This document shows positions 6,657 through 48,135 of a stretch of 64,000 nucleotides of DNA, one piece after another. Both the position numbers and the translations under genes were made by a program. Location of the stretch: the IMG/VR virus record IMGVR_UViG_3300028048_000040, positions 278,329-342,328 of that record; one strand, given 5' to 3'. The stretch's first letter is position 1; every line of letters begins with the position of its first letter. The notes below the pieces were generated by a model. It did not search any database. It saw only the letters and a list, made by a program, of their open reading frames with translations, and was not told the origin of the DNA. The DNA comes from a virus. Lineage: Duplodnaviria > Caudoviricetes.

Positions 6657-6672
6657 ATATATTATATAGGTG
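6657..6672 (+). promoter_or_regulatory. Early-type phage promoter ATATAYYAT-N5-TG (representative of 15 copies)
   Basis: Plus-strand copies at 6657, 25672, 25751, 25819, 32382, 37143, 37317, 41924, 56093; minus-strand 9-mers at 17601, 21731, 22048, 22197, 47483, 53699. Confidence 0.8.
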
Positions 6673-17623: not shown

Positions 17624-19153
17624 TTACTTTACAGAAAATCCATTAAGTGTATCGCTGAATTCTTTATAGTTTACTCTATTGAATCCAGTTTTATCTATTG
17701 TTGTAGAATCATTAGATTCTAATAAAACTTGTAGATCTAATTTAGGCATTCTGAAATATCCTTCTTGTAAGTGAGAAGTATCTATATCTTTACTAGAATA
17801 AATATTAAGTTTGGAATACATCTTAGCTCTATCATAACTATCTGCTTCTCCTCTATATAGTATATAACTATATATAGGTTTGTTTGGGAGAAGATTTATT
17901 TCTTCTCCTCTGACAAGAGTTATTAAACAATGAGCAAGATGAATATAGAATAGTTTGTCATTAGCAACTACAGGACAATCTATATCTAATTTATCACAAA
18001 TGTCTTGAACAAAGTTTTTAGGTGTAGAGTTTTTTTCATTCATCTCTTTTATTCCAGACGATATGTTGTTGTAAAGCTCATCTGACATTGGTAAGAAATA
18101 TACACATAAGAAATCATCTTCATCATTCTTAAGATCCTTAATTGTTATCTTTCTTCCAATTTTACCTCTAGTAAATTCATACAGAGTATCAGATAATGGA
18201 TCTAATCCTATAGCTATTCTAGTAGCTAATTCATTATTAATCATAGTATGAAGGAAGAATACAGATATTCCTTTAGTACTTTGAGCAGCTTCTTCTGTAA
18301 TTACACCATACTCATTTATATAAGATAAGTCTATAAAGTATCTATTGGTAAATACTTCTTTAGATAAAGCTTCATTAACTCTATCAGAGTAGATACTTCT
18401 ATCTTTGTATACTTGCTCATCTAATATACCAAAAAGCGCTTTATCTGGTTTTTCTGATATATCGAGTTTATAAGTATTTACTCCATAACATCTCATTTTG
18501 AAATCTTCGAACCATGCTTTAGGAACTTCTAAATGATTATCCTCAATCTCTTTAGGAGTAAAGAATGATTCTTTAAAATATCCTATTGGATATACTTCAT
18601 CATCATCTCTTTTTAACAATCCTTCTTGAATATTTCTAGCATAGCTTTTAACTTCTTTAGCTATAATAGAATCTCCAGTATCTAGATTTTGCATAGCTTC
18701 TATAAGATATAACTGCTCTAGAATATCATAACTTTTTTCTATAGCTCTAAGATAATAAAATGGTTTATTCCAAGATTCAGATAATCTTAAAGCTTGATTA
18801 AAGTCATCATGATAATTAGGAAAGTTTTCATTAAATGTTTTATCTGATGGAGAATACACTTTAGGAATTTCTGTATTCTTAATATCAGCTTTAGTAAACT
18901 TAGCTTTTAATCTAGGATATCTTTCTTCATTATTAGACCCAAAAAGGCTAATCGATTTTTCATTTGCTACTAGTCTTTGATCATATCCCATCATATCCCA
19001 TTTAGCTTTATCTTTTTCTAATTCAGCTTCAGAGTTATATGACTGCTTGAATACAATCATATTAGGATATTCCATTCTAAATCGATTTACTTCTTTATCT
19101 TTGAAATTATCATCTGTAAATCTAGCAGGTGTGTTTAAATTGCTTAACTTCAT
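17624..19153 (-). CDS. Hypothetical protein
   Basis: 509-aa ORF coupled to the upstream gene. Confidence 0.7.
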   Translation of the reverse strand: MKLSNLNTPARFTDDNFKDKEVNRFRMEYPNMIVFKQSYNSEAELEKDKAKWDMMGYDQRLVANEKSISLFGSNNEERYPRLKAKFTKADIKNTEIPKVYSPSDKTFNENFPNYHDDFNQALRLSESWNKPFYYLRAIEKSYDILEQLYLIEAMQNLDTGDSIIAKEVKSYARNIQEGLLKRDDDEVYPIGYFKESFFTPKEIEDNHLEVPKAWFEDFKMRCYGVNTYKLDISEKPDKALFGILDEQVYKDRSIYSDRVNEALSKEVFTNRYFIDLSYINEYGVITEEAAQSTKGISVFFLHTMINNELATRIAIGLDPLSDTLYEFTRGKIGRKITIKDLKNDEDDFLCVYFLPMSDELYNNISSGIKEMNEKNSTPKNFVQDICDKLDIDCPVVANDKLFYIHLAHCLITLVRGEEINLLPNKPIYSYILYRGEADSYDRAKMYSKLNIYSSKDIDTSHLQEGYFRMPKLDLQVLLESNDSTTIDKTGFNRVNYKEFSDTLNGFSVK

Positions 19154-19165
19154 ACAAATATCCCC

Positions 19166-19897
19166 TTAAATAATATCTTCAAAGTATATATCTTTCATCT
19201 CATGTACAGATTCTGTTCTCTTATGAGTAATCTCATTATACCCATAGAATCCTTTATAATCTTCAAAGATTAGTATGCTCTTATTATCTAATTTAGATAA
19301 GATATCTTCTGCTAGTCTTTTATCTCTCTTATTGAGAATAGGAATGTGATTCTCTAGAGTATTAAATGGAGATTTAGAATCAGGAATATATTCACTATCC
19401 TTTTCTCTCTTTTCTTTTTTAAAATGCTCAAAAGATGTCATTGTATCTTGACCAGCAGAACTTATAGCTTTACTCATCTTATCTAGCTCTATTTCTTCTA
19501 ACATAGGATCATATTTAGCTTGATCAGGAACTAATAATTTATGACCAGTGAAAGCTTCATATATATAGTTTCTATCATGTACAGGTCTATCTTCATAATC
19601 TATGTTAGTTTCCTCCAATAGACTATCAAATATTTCATCTGCTTTAGGATTAAGAGAGTAAAATCCTGTAATATAATCTTCTCCTAATGTAGTAGCTACT
19701 GTATTCTTAATTACTTTACCTTTACCATCTATACTTAAAGAAGTACTATCCTTATCTAAAGATTTAGATACACTATAGTCTCCCCAACCACCACTTAAAT
19801 CTTTATCATTAGATAAAGAGTTTACTATCATATTACCTCTTCCTGTACCAGGACCTACCATAGGATTCATAGAGGCTAAACCCATTGCTTCATTCAT
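19166..19897 (-). CDS. Hypothetical protein
   Basis: 243-aa ORF with AAGGAGG SD. Confidence 0.7.
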   Translation of the reverse strand: MNEAMGLASMNPMVGPGTGRGNMIVNSLSNDKDLSGGWGDYSVSKSLDKDSTSLSIDGKGKVIKNTVATTLGEDYITGFYSLNPKADEIFDSLLEETNIDYEDRPVHDRNYIYEAFTGHKLLVPDQAKYDPMLEEIELDKMSKAISSAGQDTMTSFEHFKKEKREKDSEYIPDSKSPFNTLENHIPILNKRDKRLAEDILSKLDNKSILIFEDYKGFYGYNEITHKRTESVHEMKDIYFEDII

Positions 19898-22036: not shown

Positions 22037-22078
22037 CCCTCAATAAAATAATATATATTTATTTTTTATATTACTTTG

Positions 22079-22190
22079 CAAAAAAGAAAGCAAGTACAGT
22101 TTGCGGTTGAAACTTGCTTTCTTTTCACCCATATTGGAGGACGGGTATGAAGAAAAGTGTAATGATGGGTCATCACTCCATCACTCACTC
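22079..22190 (-). ncRNA. Candidate small RNA (about 112 nt) with a CCUCC loop
   Basis: Early-type promoter at 22190-22205, three hairpins, terminator with U-run, no ORF. Confidence 0.6.
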
Positions 22191-25667: not shown

Positions 25668-25834
25668 AGTTATATACCATTCCTATGAGTATAAGTCTGA
25701 GGAAGGAATAGATAAAATGATATTTTTGAAGAGGGTTCAAAATTTTAGTTATATACTATTCTATTGAGGTGAGTCTGAGGGAGGAATAGTCAAAATGAAT
25801 ATCTTTCTTTTTTTATAAATATATTATATATATG
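25668..25834 (+). promoter_or_regulatory. Three tandem early-type promoters, the first two in an imperfect direct repeat of about 52 bp
   Basis: ATATAYYAT-N5-TG at 25672, 25751 and 25819; shared AGTCTGAGGRAGGAATAG after the first two. Confidence 0.75.
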
Positions 25835-25856
25835 AATAAAGAAAGGAGGAATTAAG

Positions 25857-25916
25857 ATGGAAGATGAAAGCATTGATATTGGACTTTGGGATGTTGATGA
25901 TTTTGAGGAGGAATAA
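25857..25916 (+). CDS. 19-aa acidic micropeptide MEDESIDIGLWDVDDFEEE
   Basis: AAAGGAGG SD, triple promoter upstream, paralogous to the next ORF. Confidence 0.75.
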   Translation: MEDESIDIGLWDVDDFEEE

Positions 25917-25918
25917 AA

Positions 25919-25999
25919 ATGGAACTAGAGATTGTAGAAGATAGTGAATTTGACGTTGGTTTATGGAGTGATGATGAATTTGAAACTGATGAAGAATAA
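25919..25999 (+). CDS. 26-aa acidic micropeptide MELEIVEDSEFDVGLWSDDEFETDEE
   Basis: GAGGAGG SD inside the previous ORF; terminator follows. Confidence 0.75.
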   Translation: MELEIVEDSEFDVGLWSDDEFETDEE

Positions 26000-26024
26000 A
26001 TATCAGTTTCAAATTCAAAAAATA

Positions 26025-26055
26025 ATAGAACAGGAATAACTCCTGTTCTATTTTT
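26025..26055 (+). terminator. Terminator of the micropeptide unit
   Basis: TAGAACAGGA/TCCTGTTCTA followed by a T-run. Confidence 0.8.
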
Positions 26056-26097
26056 CTGCAGAAACAATATGATAAGAAAAAATCTTAATTTATAGGA

Positions 26098-45776: not shown

Positions 45777-47195
45777 ATGGGTTCTTTTACCAACAAGCAT
45801 TACAATGAGACAGTACAAAGTTTAGTACAAGGATCACAGGATCGACTTAAAAACCCGTACTATCTTTTTTCTAATAAGTCTCCAACAACTGTAATGTATT
45901 ATAATATTAACTACAAGATGTCTACATTAGACCAAGGAACTAGACAGGTATATGACCATGTAGGAGAGAACTCTCCTTTAAGATTTAACAAAATTATTGA
46001 TTTTCAGTTATATGGTATTCCTAGAATAGAAATAGATTATAACATTGGAGAGTATGGCGTAGAATCTCCAGTAGAAGGAGAAGCATTAATTCTTCCTAAT
46101 ACAGTAATACCATGTGTAGATGATATGTTTACTATCAATTATCTAGTTGATAAACCAGTAATCTTTAGAGTATCAAAAGTATCTATTGATACGTTAGATA
46201 CAGGATCTAACTTCTACAGAATACAGTACTTTATAGATCGCGTAGATTTAGATGCTATTAAGTATCTTAATGGTAAGCAGTTAGTCAATGAATATGTATA
46301 TAAACCTGGTAATATAGGTTCTAATCTAGTATCTGTTATTGCTAAAGGAGATTCAGATACTATAGAGAAGTTGTCTGAAGCAGCTACAGAGATTCTACAT
46401 TACTATGCTGACCTGTTCTTCAAACCATCTATACAGACATTCTGTTATCTCTATACAGGGATATTTATCTATGATCCGTATTTGATCGAGTTCTTAATTA
46501 GGAATAAAGTATATGCTGTGCCAGACAATGAATATTATATGTATATATCTCAAGCAGTACATACTCCTAGGACTTTTAATATAGAATATGAGCATACTAT
46601 ATTTAGAGATATAGAAAAAAGAAATCCTAAACTAAGAACAAACTCTTGTTATATGGTTCCTTGTCATGATCCTAATAGCTTGCTTATGAATAGAATGGAA
46701 GACTACTTTGAGTTGTCTATTAATCTAAAGAACAAACCATTCTCCCCACCTATCAATTGGTTGAATATGGATCTGTTTGATAGGATAGTAAATAATGATC
46801 TATATGATGAAGACGATCCAGATGCTCCTATCTATAGAAATATAATTATAAGATGGATGAATGATAAATCTTACACTGTTACTGATGAAGAATTAGAGAA
46901 TCTTATTAATATATCATATCACCCATGCAAAGATCTATTTTATGAAATTCCTATTCTACTATTCATTCTCAATGATATAGTAACTGGTTTACAAGTAGAT
47001 CTTACTAACTTACCATCTAATGGTAATGGTGCTATTGGTAATACTTCTGCTGTATCTACCACTAATGCATTAGCAGATGATATTACTGTAGATGAATATA
47101 ATAGTGGTGGTAATTGTGGTAGAACTTGTATGTGTCCTAGGGGAGATACATATACCAAACCAGGTACAGATGACTCATATATGACTGGTAGATAG
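45777..47195 (+). CDS. Putative virion structural (neck/head-completion-like) protein
   Basis: Late-type promoter at 45737; beta-rich N-half (GEALILPNTVIPCVDDMF..FRVSKV). Confidence 0.5.
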   Translation: MGSFTNKHYNETVQSLVQGSQDRLKNPYYLFSNKSPTTVMYYNINYKMSTLDQGTRQVYDHVGENSPLRFNKIIDFQLYGIPRIEIDYNIGEYGVESPVEGEALILPNTVIPCVDDMFTINYLVDKPVIFRVSKVSIDTLDTGSNFYRIQYFIDRVDLDAIKYLNGKQLVNEYVYKPGNIGSNLVSVIAKGDSDTIEKLSEAATEILHYYADLFFKPSIQTFCYLYTGIFIYDPYLIEFLIRNKVYAVPDNEYYMYISQAVHTPRTFNIEYEHTIFRDIEKRNPKLRTNSCYMVPCHDPNSLLMNRMEDYFELSINLKNKPFSPPINWLNMDLFDRIVNNDLYDEDDPDAPIYRNIIIRWMNDKSYTVTDEELENLINISYHPCKDLFYEIPILLFILNDIVTGLQVDLTNLPSNGNGAIGNTSAVSTTNALADDITVDEYNSGGNCGRTCMCPRGDTYTKPGTDDSYMTGR

Positions 47196-47476
47196 AAAAA
47201 AGAAATGGAGTTGGCATACCAAACCAACTCCTGGGAATCAGAAATGTTAATTTAAGGGGACCAAGTTATGTTAAATGATTTTGTATAAATTCAAGGAGTT
47301 TATTCACCTCTTTCATATTTATTTAATCATCATTATTCGATTGTATATACTAACAAAATGCTGTTAATATAAAATATATATAAAATTTAACATAACTTGG
47401 GAACATTTCATACCCTAATTCAAACCTTACCACCCTATTTCCTTACATTACCCATGGGAAATATTGCTTCGGTTTC
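47196..47476 (-). ncRNA. Candidate structured RNA (about 280 nt) forming a long rod
   Basis: Early-type promoter at 47476-47491; perfect 16-bp inverted repeat (47260-47275/47385-47400) plus outer 8-bp stem; minus-strand terminator 47196-47231. Confidence 0.6.
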
Positions 47477-47539
47477 ATAATAATAATATATAATTGAAAA
47501 AAAGTTTACTTTACCAGGATAGGTTTTTCCTATCCTGGT

Positions 47540-47836
47540 TTAGCGTTTGATATAAGTTCTAAGATTTGTCAAAGTGCGTTTCTTTTTTACTTGGAATATG
47601 TTATATGATGCAAATAATGTGTCTAGAGACTTAGTTCTAATACAATTACTTAATGCTACCATTGCATCTAAACTATTCATGAAATCTTCATCACTATCAA
47701 TATCCTCTATTAATTGTTTAAGACCTATGAATGCTGATGCTTCTTTTCTAATAAACTCCATTATTTGATCATAAGGAGGGTTTGCCATGTTTTGCATCTC
47801 ATTCATTGTATTATCAGGATTCAGGATTGCCACCAT
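47540..47836 (-). CDS. Hypothetical protein
   Basis: AGGAGG SD; hairpin downstream at about 47513-47539. Confidence 0.65.
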   Translation of the reverse strand: MVAILNPDNTMNEMQNMANPPYDQIMEFIRKEASAFIGLKQLIEDIDSDEDFMNSLDAMVALSNCIRTKSLDTLFASYNIFQVKKKRTLTNLRTYIKR

Positions 47837-47931
47837 CTTATTGCCCTCCTATAATTTCTATTACAAGATGGTCAACTTAATCTATAAAACAGTATGATAA
47901 TCAGACACCTTATTAGAAGGAGGTTTTATTT

Positions 47932-48135
47932 GTGAGCGCAGTTGTAGACCAAATCATGTTAGAAGACATGTTAAATGAAGATATGGCAGATATTGCCATA
48001 ACTGGTTCTTATAATGAAGCAATAGATACATTGCTGGTATATGATGAAGATACTAAATCTTATGATCCTGATAGTGGAATGATGTTTCCACCTGAGATTA
48101 AAGATTATAATGAATACTTGGATGAGGTGAAGTAA
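47932..48135 (+). CDS. Small acidic late protein
   Basis: AAGGAGG SD; late-type promoter at 47888. Confidence 0.7.
   Translation: MSAVVDQIMLEDMLNEDMADIAITGSYNEAIDTLLVYDEDTKSYDPDSGMMFPPEIKDYNEYLDEVK

What the first reader, a model, noticed from the sequence alone, without database searches (positions are those of the whole stretch)
47196..47491. About 280-nt early transcript folding into a long interrupted rod
Seen: CCAAGTTATGTTAAAT (47260-47275) pairs perfectly with 47385-47400. GAAATGTT (47241-47248) pairs with AACATTTC (47402-47409) across an asymmetric bulge, and ATTTTGT/ACAAAAT pair inside. A 5' hairpin and a terminator complete the unit. Only 15-16-codon ORFs without good SDs are present. 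Inference: a structured RNA that might act as a 6S-like RNAP decoy, a dsRNA/nuclease sponge or an antitoxin mimic; a DNA cruciform or protein-binding site is an alternative.
Basis: partly seen in the sequence, partly recalled or inferred. Interest (0 to 1): 0.7.

Follow-up and report, generated by a model that had tools for sequence, protein, structure and literature searches.

The report
Fast-evolving early small RNA, jumbo phage
A 342-kb uncultured gut/rumen phage carries a self-contained gene for a roughly 280-base folded RNA that makes no protein; it is probably switched on at the start of infection, and it keeps its rod shape and one exposed C-rich patch while its sequence changes faster than its neighbours', but its target is unknown.

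Summary
The unit lies on the minus strand.

- **Promoter:** AR9-type virion-RNA-polymerase early promoter, core 47493-47483, predicted start G47476.
- **RNA:** 281 nt with no conserved ORF.
- **Terminator:** intrinsic, stem 47231-47207, U-run to 47196.
- **Setting:** between two convergent genes, and absent from relatives at about 62% protein identity.

Twelve versions from relatives (nine complete or nearly so) fall into three body types whose bodies show no sequence similarity to one another. All keep the same plan: 5' hairpin, outer stem, a 3'-side bulge with an unpaired UCCC(C)UU-like patch, inner stem, variable AU-rich interior and terminator. Compensatory changes and G·U pairs on the transcribed strand support selection on the RNA. 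The RNA diverges faster than third codon positions of its flanking genes.

There is no Rfam match. It is not 6S-like and not a ToxI-type antitoxin. My best guess, which is weak, is a trans-acting regulatory RNA that uses the C-rich patch as a seed, like the UCCC-motif RNAs of Bacillota. No target was found.

This scan had already noted a similar early RNA cassette elsewhere in the same genome (e1-5656752). I class this as a new member of a known kind, of moderate interest.

The parts
47513..47539 (-). Upstream boundary: 11-bp hairpin just after the stop of the 98-aa minus-strand gene (47540-47836). It probably terminates that gene and, read on the plus strand, the convergent late gene.
   Evidence: Inverted repeat I17. 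The stem is kept in all relatives, in L005 through a compensatory G-C to A-T change.
47483..47512 (-). AR9-type virion-RNA-polymerase early promoter: an A/T-rich upstream part followed by the core TTATATATTAT (47493-47483).
   Evidence: Position-weight-matrix score 33.3 bits. The genome has 60 sites above 18 bits, against 0-2 in shuffles. The layout matches AR9's AAATATATATTAT-(6N)-G+1 (PMC5312081).
47196..47476 (-). Predicted 281-nt non-coding RNA, from the start G47476 to the end of the U-run.
   Evidence: G lies 6 nt after the core. There is no conserved ORF. MFE -69.5 kcal/mol, z -3.8.
47422..47475 (-). 5' hairpin domain (P1 AAACC/GGTTT; P2 TATTTCC/GGAAATA).
   Evidence: GTAAGGAAA is invariant in the type A variants.
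47402..47409 (-). Outer rod stem P4, 5' strand (GAAATGTT); pairs with 47241-47248.
   Evidence: All cells are paired in 5 variants, with one G-C to A-U change and one G·U.
47385..47400 (-). Inner rod stem P5, 5' strand; pairs with 47261-47276 (16 bp, perfect).
   Evidence: Seven of 13 aligned pairs show changes on both sides. Each sequence's own arms pair at -14 to -20 kcal/mol, against -3 to -11.5 for arms swapped between different lineages.
47277..47384 (-). Variable AU-rich interior with small hairpins (P6 47361-47371 / 47346-47356) and conserved GTTAGTATA and AGGTGAA blocks.
   Evidence: Indels and low identity between relatives.
47249..47260 (-). Twelve-nt bulge on the 3' side, UCCCCUUAAAUU, carrying the exposed C-rich patch.
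   Evidence: Unpaired probability 1.0 here and 0.98-1.0 at the same place in 8 of 9 variants. In L007 the bulge is a CU-rich UUCCUUCUC, and UUCCCUUC lies unpaired in the 5' loop instead.
47241..47248 (-). Outer stem P4, 3' strand (AACATTTC).
47261..47276 (-). Inner stem P5, 3' strand.
47196..47231 (-). Intrinsic terminator: a 9-bp G+C-rich stem (47223-47231 / 47207-47215) followed by AUUUCUUUUUU.
   Evidence: The terminator scan calls it on the minus strand only. It is conserved, with one compensatory pair.

Best explanation
The region is a stand-alone, ORF-less gene for a structured small RNA of about 280 nt on the minus strand.

**How it is made.** The phage's virion RNA polymerase most likely transcribes it at the very start of infection, from an AR9-type early promoter (start G47476). 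An intrinsic terminator ends it at about 47196-47200.

**How it folds.** The RNA forms a 5' hairpin domain and then an interrupted rod. The rod has an 8-10 bp outer stem, a 9-14 nt bulge on the 3' side and a 12-16 bp inner stem that closes a variable AU-rich interior.

**What the rod does (inferred).** It holds out a conserved single-stranded UCCC(C)UU patch. The proposed mechanism, which is not shown, is that this patch and a second C-rich loop act as a seed. The seed would pair with G-rich, Shine-Dalgarno-like sequences of host or phage mRNAs and so change their translation or stability early in infection. The 5' hairpin and the rod would protect the RNA from degradation.

**What is shown and what is inferred.**
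- Shown at sequence level: the promoter, the terminator, the structure, covariation and fast divergence.
- Inferred: the timing, by analogy with AR9, and the pairing function.
For: **Promoter**
- The motif gtAAActnatTTTtAGTTATATAyTAT-(6N)-G occurs 60 times in the genome, against 0-2 in shuffles.
- Thirty-six of the 60 sites have a Shine-Dalgarno sequence and start codon within 100 nt downstream.
- It has the layout of the AR9 early promoter, AAATATATATTAT-(6N)-G+1.
- The genome encodes two Rpb2_6-like genes and one Rpb1_2-like gene.
- The site here scores 33.3 bits on the minus strand.

**Terminator:** it is called on the minus strand only.

**Cassette in relatives**
- The same cassette sits between the same convergent genes in 12 versions from relatives.
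- It is absent where the flanking structural protein is only about 62% identical.

**Structure**
- All nine versions folded have z scores of -3.5 to -6.7.
- In the type A alignment, 85% of cells are paired, against 33-46% when partners are slid.
- Twelve pairs carry changes on both sides (2 of 500 shuffles reach this), and 7 of the 13 inner-stem pairs do.
- Each sequence's own arms pair far better than arms taken from other lineages.

**Selection at RNA level**
- The transcribed strand is more stable than its complement in 7 of 8 versions.
- The folds have 53 G·U pairs against 2 A·C single mismatches.

**C-rich patch:** it is exposed, with unpaired probability of at least 0.98, in every version.

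**Precedent**
- Unpaired UCCC motifs plus a 5' hairpin and a terminator mark RNAs of S. aureus that block ribosome-binding sites (PMC2790875).
- Short units with a transcription start followed closely by a terminator, read as sRNAs, were found experimentally in jumbo phage 201phi2-1 (PMC11512511).
Against: - I obtained no expression data for this locus, so the start site, the timing and the polymerase all rest on analogy.
- No target was found. The best duplex of the bulge with any phage translation-initiation region (-17.4 kcal/mol) is within the range of shuffled seeds.
- The 11-nt match behind that duplex does not co-vary in the L005 genome.
- The host genome is unknown.
- CCCC pairs poorly with the phage's commonest Shine-Dalgarno sequence (GGAGG). 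Only about 10% of predicted phage genes have a GGGG-type sequence.
- Typical base-pairing sRNAs do not need a conserved 25-bp rod, so the rod may serve a different function.
- Concerted change of the repeat arms could come partly from template switching at DNA level.
Confidence: 0.45

Rival explanations
1. Protein decoy or sponge. The rod with its bulge is a binding platform that ties up a host protein early in infection. Candidates are a dsRNA-specific or other nuclease, an RNA-sensing defence protein, an RNA chaperone or a polymerase. Fast, structure-preserving divergence would then reflect an arms race.
For: - The structure is conserved much more strongly than the sequence.
- The RNA diverges faster than third codon positions of the flanking genes, as counter-defence genes often do.
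- The two stems together give 24-26 bp of near-continuous helix.
- No mRNA target was found.
Against: - No partner is known.
- There is no match to 6S or any other protein-binding RNA family.
- The one sequence element conserved across all three body types is single-stranded and C-rich, which is more typical of a pairing seed.
- The helices are short and interrupted, so it would be a poor long-dsRNA mimic.
Confidence: 0.2
2. Cis-antisense or 3'-UTR element. The unit matters because it overlaps the 3' untranslated end of the convergent late virion gene (45777-47195). Either the plus-strand rod stabilises that mRNA, or early minus-strand RNA pairs with late plus-strand read-through to control it.
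For: - The hairpin after the virion gene has no U-run on the plus strand.
- Late transcripts may therefore run on to the hairpin at 47513-47539 and contain the full complement of the RNA.
- The plus strand also folds better than shuffles.
Against: - Pure antisense action needs no internal structure, yet the stems co-vary.
- G·U pairs favour the minus strand.
- The promoter and terminator are on the minus strand.
- Relatives without the cassette express the same convergent genes with only a shared terminator between them.
Confidence: 0.1
3. Mobile promoter-terminator cassette, analogous to PeSL. The promoter and hairpins are what is maintained, as recombination or regulatory modules. The transcribed body would be a passenger whose inverted repeat is kept perfect by template switching.
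For: - The cassette is present in one clade and absent in the next.
- The promoter and both terminators are the best conserved parts, while the body types share no detectable sequence similarity.
- The genome holds other units made of an early promoter, a hairpin and a terminator, some in tandem.
- PeSL cassettes are documented in T4-type phages (PMC2839356).
Against: - A passenger would not keep the same stem-bulge-stem plan and the same exposed patch in three unalignable body types.
- It would not show strand-specific G·U pairs.
- The body is single-copy in the genome.
Confidence: 0.1
4. DNA-level element: a replication origin (promoter plus AT-rich unwinding region flanked by repeats), a cruciform or a protein-binding palindrome.
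For: There is a 16-bp perfect inverted repeat around a 108-bp AT-rich spacer, next to a promoter. Arm-to-arm covariation alone cannot separate a DNA reading from an RNA reading.
Against: - By general knowledge, a 108-bp spacer makes cruciform extrusion very unfavourable.
- Arm sequences differ between close relatives, so a binding protein would have to co-evolve.
- Wobble pairs lie on one strand only.
- The element is missing from more distant relatives at this position.
Confidence: 0.05

Closest known systems
UCCC-motif (C-rich seed) regulatory RNAs of Bacillota: S. aureus Rsa RNAs, RsaE/RoxS and RNAIII (PMC2790875)
   Same: It is a stand-alone unit with its own promoter and an intrinsic terminator. 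It has a 5' hairpin. The conserved, unpaired UCCC(C) motif lies in the most conserved part of the RNA. Helix sequences vary while the structure is kept.
   Different: - It is phage-encoded, with no sequence or Rfam relationship to these RNAs.
- It is longer, and the motif is presented in a bulge of a 25-bp rod rather than in a hairpin loop.
- No target was identified, and pairing to ribosome-binding sites is untested.
Short sRNA transcription units of jumbo phages found by ONT-cappable-seq (201phi2-1: 11 sRNAs, 3 of them intergenic; phiKZ) (PMC11512511)
   Same: It lies in a giant phage with its own multisubunit RNA polymerases. A promoter is followed within about 250-300 nt by a terminator, with no coding sequence, and the function is unknown.
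   Different: Those RNAs are experimentally mapped in Pseudomonas phages, whereas this one is only predicted. There is no sequence similarity. This one has covariation support, a defined rod and marked hypervariability.
AR9/PBS1 early transcription units (virion RNA polymerase promoters, PMC5312081)
   Same: The promoter layout is the same: an extended AT-rich block ending in TATAyTAT, then 6 nt, then G+1. The phage's GroEL-like protein has its best GenBank phage matches in AR9/PBS1-like Bacillus and Staphylococcus jumbo phages, at 23-25% identity.
   Different: The consensus begins AGTTATATA rather than AAATATATA. AR9 early units are described as mRNA leaders and genes, not as orphan RNA genes.
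6S RNA (Rfam RF00013 and relatives)
   Same: It is an abundant-type small RNA with a long interrupted helix. The idea of a polymerase decoy is attractive for a phage that brings its own polymerases.
   Different: - There is no covariance-model match.
- The 5' and 3' ends do not close the rod.
- There is no central open-promoter-like bubble.
- The rod encloses a 108-nt branched interior.
PeSL cassettes of T4-type phages (PMC2839356)
   Same: An early promoter with stem-loop terminators forms a small intergenic module whose presence varies between related phages.
   Different: PeSLs use sigma-70-like promoters, are multi-copy and have no conserved structured RNA body of about 250 nt.
Early RNA cassette at about 14.9 kb of the same genome
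   Same: It has the same promoter class, a length of about 260 nt, no ORF, a long-range closing stem and C-rich unpaired stretches. It was reported as hypervariable.
   Different: Its sequence is unrelated (one search finds no second copy). It lies upstream of a gene rather than between convergent genes.

Membership tests
6S RNA | Match to the Rfam 6S covariance models | tested here: not met
   There were no hits at gathering score over the whole window. No 6S hit appeared even at E <= 10 on 47100-47600, both strands.
6S RNA | Rod closed by the 5' and 3' ends, with a central bubble that mimics an open promoter | tested here: not met
   The 5' end forms its own hairpin. The stems enclose a 108-nt branched interior, and the only large unpaired element in the rod is a one-sided 12-nt bulge.
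6S RNA | Binds RNA polymerase holoenzyme and templates pRNA | not testable with these tools
   This needs biochemistry.
Type III antitoxin RNA (ToxI-like) | Tandem direct repeats of about 36 nt next to a toxin gene | tested here: not met
   There is no direct-repeat family longer than 14 nt in 46900-47900, and no toxin-like neighbour.
UCCC-motif base-pairing sRNAs (functional class, not a homology family) | Own promoter and intrinsic terminator, with no ORF | tested here: met
UCCC-motif base-pairing sRNAs (functional class, not a homology family) | Conserved unpaired UCCC motif | tested here: met
   A UCCC(C) run has unpaired probability 0.98-1.0 in all nine variants. It lies in the rod bulge in eight of them.
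UCCC-motif base-pairing sRNAs (functional class, not a homology family) | The motif pairs with the Shine-Dalgarno region of target mRNAs | tested here: inconclusive
   The best phage target is no better than shuffled seeds give. That candidate does not co-vary. The host genome is not available.
AR9-type virion-RNAP early transcription unit | Extended AT-rich consensus ending in TATAyTAT, with G+1 six nt downstream | tested here: met
   The site scores 33.3 bits. Sixty sites in the genome exceed 18 bits, against 0-2 in shuffles. G carries the highest information content. The AR9 consensus was read.
AR9-type virion-RNAP early transcription unit | The phage encodes two multisubunit RNA polymerases | tested here: met
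   Two Rpb2_6-like open frames and one Rpb1_2-like open frame score above the Pfam cut-offs. The subunits were not assigned to the virion or non-virion enzyme.
AR9-type virion-RNAP early transcription unit | Transcript present early and independent of protein synthesis | not testable with these tools
   This needs infection time-course RNA data.
PeSL cassettes | Multi-copy sigma-70-type early promoter plus stem-loop, mediating module exchange | tested here: not met
   The promoter is of the phage-polymerase type. The body is single-copy. Presence or absence between clades is seen, but exchange was not shown.

The most novel reading that the evidence does not exclude
The RNA is a counter-defence or host-takeover molecule made in the first minutes of infection. 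It would be either an anti-Shine-Dalgarno mimic that selectively shuts down host translation, or a decoy for a host RNA-sensing or nuclease defence. Its structure-preserving hypervariability would be the footprint of an arms race fought at RNA level. On this reading, jumbo phages would carry a repertoire of fast-evolving early 'RNA effectors', of which at least two are in this genome.
Probability: 0.2. Interest if true: 0.8.

Novelty: new member of a known kind. Interest (0 to 1): 0.55.

Why it matters
Small RNAs of virulent phages are barely explored. In jumbo phages, transcriptomics has shown short orphan transcripts with no known function.

This locus is a clean, testable example. It has a defined promoter class, defined ends, a structure backed by covariation and one invariant exposed motif. 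Its sequence also changes faster than nearby silent sites. That pattern is usually read as conflict with the host when it is seen in proteins, and it is rarely documented for an RNA.

If the C-rich patch is a seed or a decoy surface, the RNA would be an early effector of host takeover or counter-defence in a poorly known group of gut and rumen phages.

Tried and rejected
- **Rfam:** scans at gathering score on the whole window and at E <= 10 on 47100-47600 gave nothing meaningful.
- **GenBank phages:** a blastn 'distant' search with 46700-48000 found no match.
- **Metagenome scan:** the pattern AGGGTNNGAAATRTTCCC was too loose. No metatranscriptome evidence was therefore obtained.
- **More distant viral contigs:** loci carrying the flanking virion gene have a different gene order and no cassette.
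- **Small-protein reading:** the 16-codon ORF on the minus strand loses its ATG in L005, and the SD-like AGAGGTGA is not followed by a conserved start codon.
- **Promoter-mimic idea:** AGTTAT occurs in the window's inner stem, but that stem differs in L041, L046, L042 and L170.
- **Specific target:** the bulge has an 11-nt match to the initiation region of the gene at 17624-19153 (-). It is within chance, and it is unchanged in the L005 genome although the L005 bulge differs.
- **Mosaic flanks as a sign of recombination at the cassette:** the 98-aa gene simply evolves faster than the virion gene, and the two trees are concordant.
- **Covariance model of the whole RNA:** not attempted, because the model would exceed the calibration limit. 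Covariation was instead counted on a MAFFT alignment, which mis-registers the inner stem of L042 and L046 and so undercounts, and by alignment-free duplex energies.

Full report
**Context**

The window is the last 64 kb of a 342,328-bp IMG/VR virus record with about 31% G+C.
- Neighbouring genes are phage genes: a GroEL-like chaperonin, a primase-like protein, a virion or head-tail-joining-like protein (45777-47195, PF24214 / phrog_3013), a prohead protease and a thymidylate kinase.
- The best GenBank phage matches of the chaperonin are AR9/PBS1-like Bacillus jumbo phages and Staphylococcus jumbo phages, at only 23-25% identity.
- The genome encodes two Rpb2_6-like genes and an Rpb1_2-like gene, as expected for a phage with its own multisubunit RNA polymerases.
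- The finding lies in the 344-bp gap between two convergent genes: the virion gene on the plus strand and a 98-aa gene of no known family on the minus strand (47540-47836).

**Observation**

The pairings are real.
- GAAATGTT (47241-47248) pairs with AACATTTC (47402-47409).
- No shuffle of the window reached a 16-bp perfect repeat.
- The genome has only one other long-range perfect repeat of that length.

**Strand and transcription unit**

A search of the phage's own genome with the intergenic region showed that about 35 nt near 47475-47511 recur at three other places. This led to a genome-wide motif which, read in the direction of transcription, is gtAAActnatTTTtAGTTATATAyTAT-(6N)-G.
- The core has 31 exact copies.
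- A weight matrix finds 60 sites above 18 bits, against 0-2 in shuffled genomes.
- Thirty-six of the 60 sites have a Shine-Dalgarno sequence and start codon within 100 nt downstream, often just after a terminator of the preceding gene.
- The layout is that of the experimentally defined AR9 early promoter for the virion RNA polymerase, AAATATATATTAT-(6N)-G+1 (PMC5312081).

At this locus the motif lies on the minus strand (33.3 bits; core 47493-47483), with the predicted start at G47476. Downstream there is no ORF. A terminator-like hairpin (stem 47231-47207) followed by AUUUCUUUUUU is called only on the minus strand. The minus strand folds to -69.5/-69.8 kcal/mol (z -3.2 to -3.8), against -59.3 for the plus strand.

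**Relatives**

Contigs were fetched through the two flanking proteins. Twelve versions of the cassette were found between the same two genes.

| Body type | Versions | Length |
|---|---|---|
| A | window, L005 (= L006), L041, L046 (3' end cut), L042, L170 | 266-336 nt |
| B | L007, L043, L174 (partial) | about 140-155 nt |
| C | L008, L045, L044 (partial) | about 250-265 nt |

- The promoter, the upstream hairpin and the terminator are conserved throughout.
- Between the types, blastn detects similarity only in the terminator, and only between A and B; the bodies themselves do not match.
- Relatives whose virion protein is only 62% identical (L009-L011) have just a 31-nt gap with a single hairpin, so the cassette is a clade-specific insertion.

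**Structure and covariation**

Every version folds into the same plan:
1. a 5' hairpin domain;
2. a short GGG/CCC clamp (in the type A versions);
3. an 8-10 bp outer stem;
4. a 9-14 nt pyrimidine-rich bulge on the 3' side only;
5. a 12-16 bp inner stem;
6. a variable AU-rich interior with small hairpins;
7. the terminator.

The supporting numbers are these.
- All nine versions tested beat all 60 dinucleotide shuffles, with z from -3.5 to -6.7.
- On a five-sequence type A alignment, 85.2% of cells form standard pairs, against 33-46% when partners are slid by 1-3 columns.
- Twelve pairs show changes on both sides (2 of 500 shuffles reach this), and 7 of the 13 inner-stem pairs are compensatory. 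This is despite a mis-registered alignment for two sequences.
- Alignment-free duplex energies give each sequence's own arms -14 to -20 kcal/mol, against -3 to -11.5 for arms swapped between different lineages.

**RNA or DNA?**

Arm-to-arm covariation alone would also fit a DNA palindrome or template-switch correction. Three observations favour selection on the minus-strand RNA.
- The transcribed strand is more stable than its complement in 7 of 8 versions, by 5-12 kcal/mol.
- Its folds contain 53 G·U pairs but only 2 A·C single mismatches. Folds of the complement have 44 G·U and 9 A·C.
- In the rod stems, the non-Watson-Crick pairs are G·U on the transcribed strand (L041, L046, L170, L007, L043, L008, L045). 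None of the single A·C mismatches lies in a rod stem.

**Rate of change**

The RNA diverges faster than nearly neutral sites next to it.

| Compared with the window | RNA identity | Third-position identity of the flanks |
|---|---|---|
| L041 | 70% | 80-90% |
| L046 | 65% | 92% (the 98-aa protein is 99% identical) |

Three independent assemblies break at the same place or within about 17 nt of it, inside the 5' part of the RNA (L047, L048, L172). This is what strain-level variation would cause. The unit is therefore hypervariable in sequence but constrained in shape.

**Conserved features**

In type A the invariant blocks are:
- the 5' end;
- GTAAGGAAA;
- TAGGGT..GAAAT.TTCCC;
- GTTAGTATA;
- AGGTGAA;
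- GGTCCC;
- the terminator.

Across all three types the only shared sequence element inside the body is the start of the bulge:
- UCCCCUU, UCCCUU or UCCCCA in type A;
- UCCCUUC or UUCCUUCUC in type B;
- UUCCCCUUU or AUCCCCUUC in type C.

Its predicted unpaired probability is 0.98-1.0. Types A and B carry a second C-rich stretch in the 5' hairpin.

**Function**

The promoter class suggests synthesis at the onset of infection.

*Best guess.* The combination of a 5' hairpin, a conserved unpaired UCCC motif and a terminator is the signature described for the Rsa RNAs, RsaE and RNAIII of S. aureus, which pair with Shine-Dalgarno regions (PMC2790875). My best guess is a trans-acting RNA that uses the patch as a seed.

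*Why this is weak.*
- The best duplex with any predicted phage initiation region (-17.4 kcal/mol, gene 17624-19153 minus) lies within the range of shuffled seeds.
- The target sequence is unchanged in the L005 genome although the L005 bulge differs.
- Only about 10% of phage genes have GGGG-type Shine-Dalgarno sequences.
- The host is unknown.

*Rivals that remain open.*
- A protein decoy or sponge.
- A cis-antisense or 3'-UTR role for the convergent late gene.
- A PeSL-like cassette with a passenger body.

- 6S-like decoy: fails both tests that could be run, namely no model match and a different architecture.
- ToxI-like antitoxin: fails for lack of repeats.
- Cruciform or protein site: unlikely.

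**Comparison and novelty**

Orphan units with a start site followed closely by a terminator, read as sRNAs, have been mapped in jumbo phage 201phi2-1 (11 sRNAs, 3 of them intergenic) and in phiKZ, with unknown functions (PMC11512511). This scan has also already reported a similar, unrelated early RNA cassette at about 14.9 kb of this same genome (e1-5656752). I saw that unit and several other ORF-less units made of an early promoter, a hairpin and a terminator in my own promoter survey.

The present RNA matches no catalogued family. It is best filed as a new member of the known kind 'phage-encoded small RNA'. What sets it apart is good covariation support, a rod that presents a conserved C-rich bulge, and faster-than-silent divergence.

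**Verdict**
- The structured early RNA is supported.
- The mechanism remains inferred.

Noticed in passing
whole genome G000; in the window the start sites are at 6672(+), 17594(-), 17850(-), 21724(-), 22041(-), 22190(-), 25687(+), 25766(+), 32397(+), 37332(+), 47476(-) and 56108(+): There is a genome-wide early-promoter motif, gtAAActnatTTTtAGTTATATAyTAT-(6N)-G. It has 60 sites above 18 bits, against 0-2 in shuffles. Several sites are in tandem.
   Followed up: yes
window 22041-22190 (-); genome 149864-149981 (-), 152239-152362 (+), 125309-125629 (-), 89774 (-): Tandem early promoters are each followed by a 5' hairpin and a terminator-like hairpin before the next promoter or the gene. These could be attenuator-like or PeSL-like modules, or very short RNAs.
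   Followed up: partly
genome 14886 (-), 211136 (-), 172636 (+) (outside the window): These are further ORF-less early units of 220-260 nt that end in terminators and have strong long-range stems. The first is the cassette already reported by this scan.
   Followed up: partly
window 25766-26060 (+): An early unit holds two tiny acidic ORFs with strong Shine-Dalgarno sequences, plus a 16-bp perfect hairpin (arms starting at 25975 and 26002). It was already noted by this scan as a micropeptide cassette.
   Followed up: no
genome-wide; for example window 34141 (+) and 58363 (+): About 10% of predicted genes use a GGGG-type Shine-Dalgarno sequence, and many are preceded by TATTATAG or TTATTAG immediately upstream. 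This may be a distinct promoter or leader class.
   Followed up: no
L047 and L048 (contig ends 106 nt after the 98-aa gene); L172: Independent assemblies end at the same place or within about 17 nt of it, inside the 5' part of the RNA gene. This suggests strain-level variation that breaks the assembly graph there.
   Followed up: partly
window 47540-47836 (-): The 98-aa protein has no Pfam or PHROG family and a basic C-terminal tail (KKKRTLTNLRTYIKR). It evolves faster than the neighbouring virion protein (47% against 62% identity in L009). It is also present in relatives that lack the RNA cassette.
   Followed up: partly
genome 163946-164156 (outside the window): This is the only other perfect inverted repeat of at least 16 bp with a long spacer (179 nt) in the genome.
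   Followed up: no
window 19153-19175 (-), against RNA bulge 47249-47260: An 11-nt perfect complementarity (AUUUAAGGGGA / UCCCCUUAAAU) links the RNA bulge and the initiation region of the 509-aa gene at 17624-19153. It is within chance expectation and does not co-vary in the L005 genome.
   Followed up: yes
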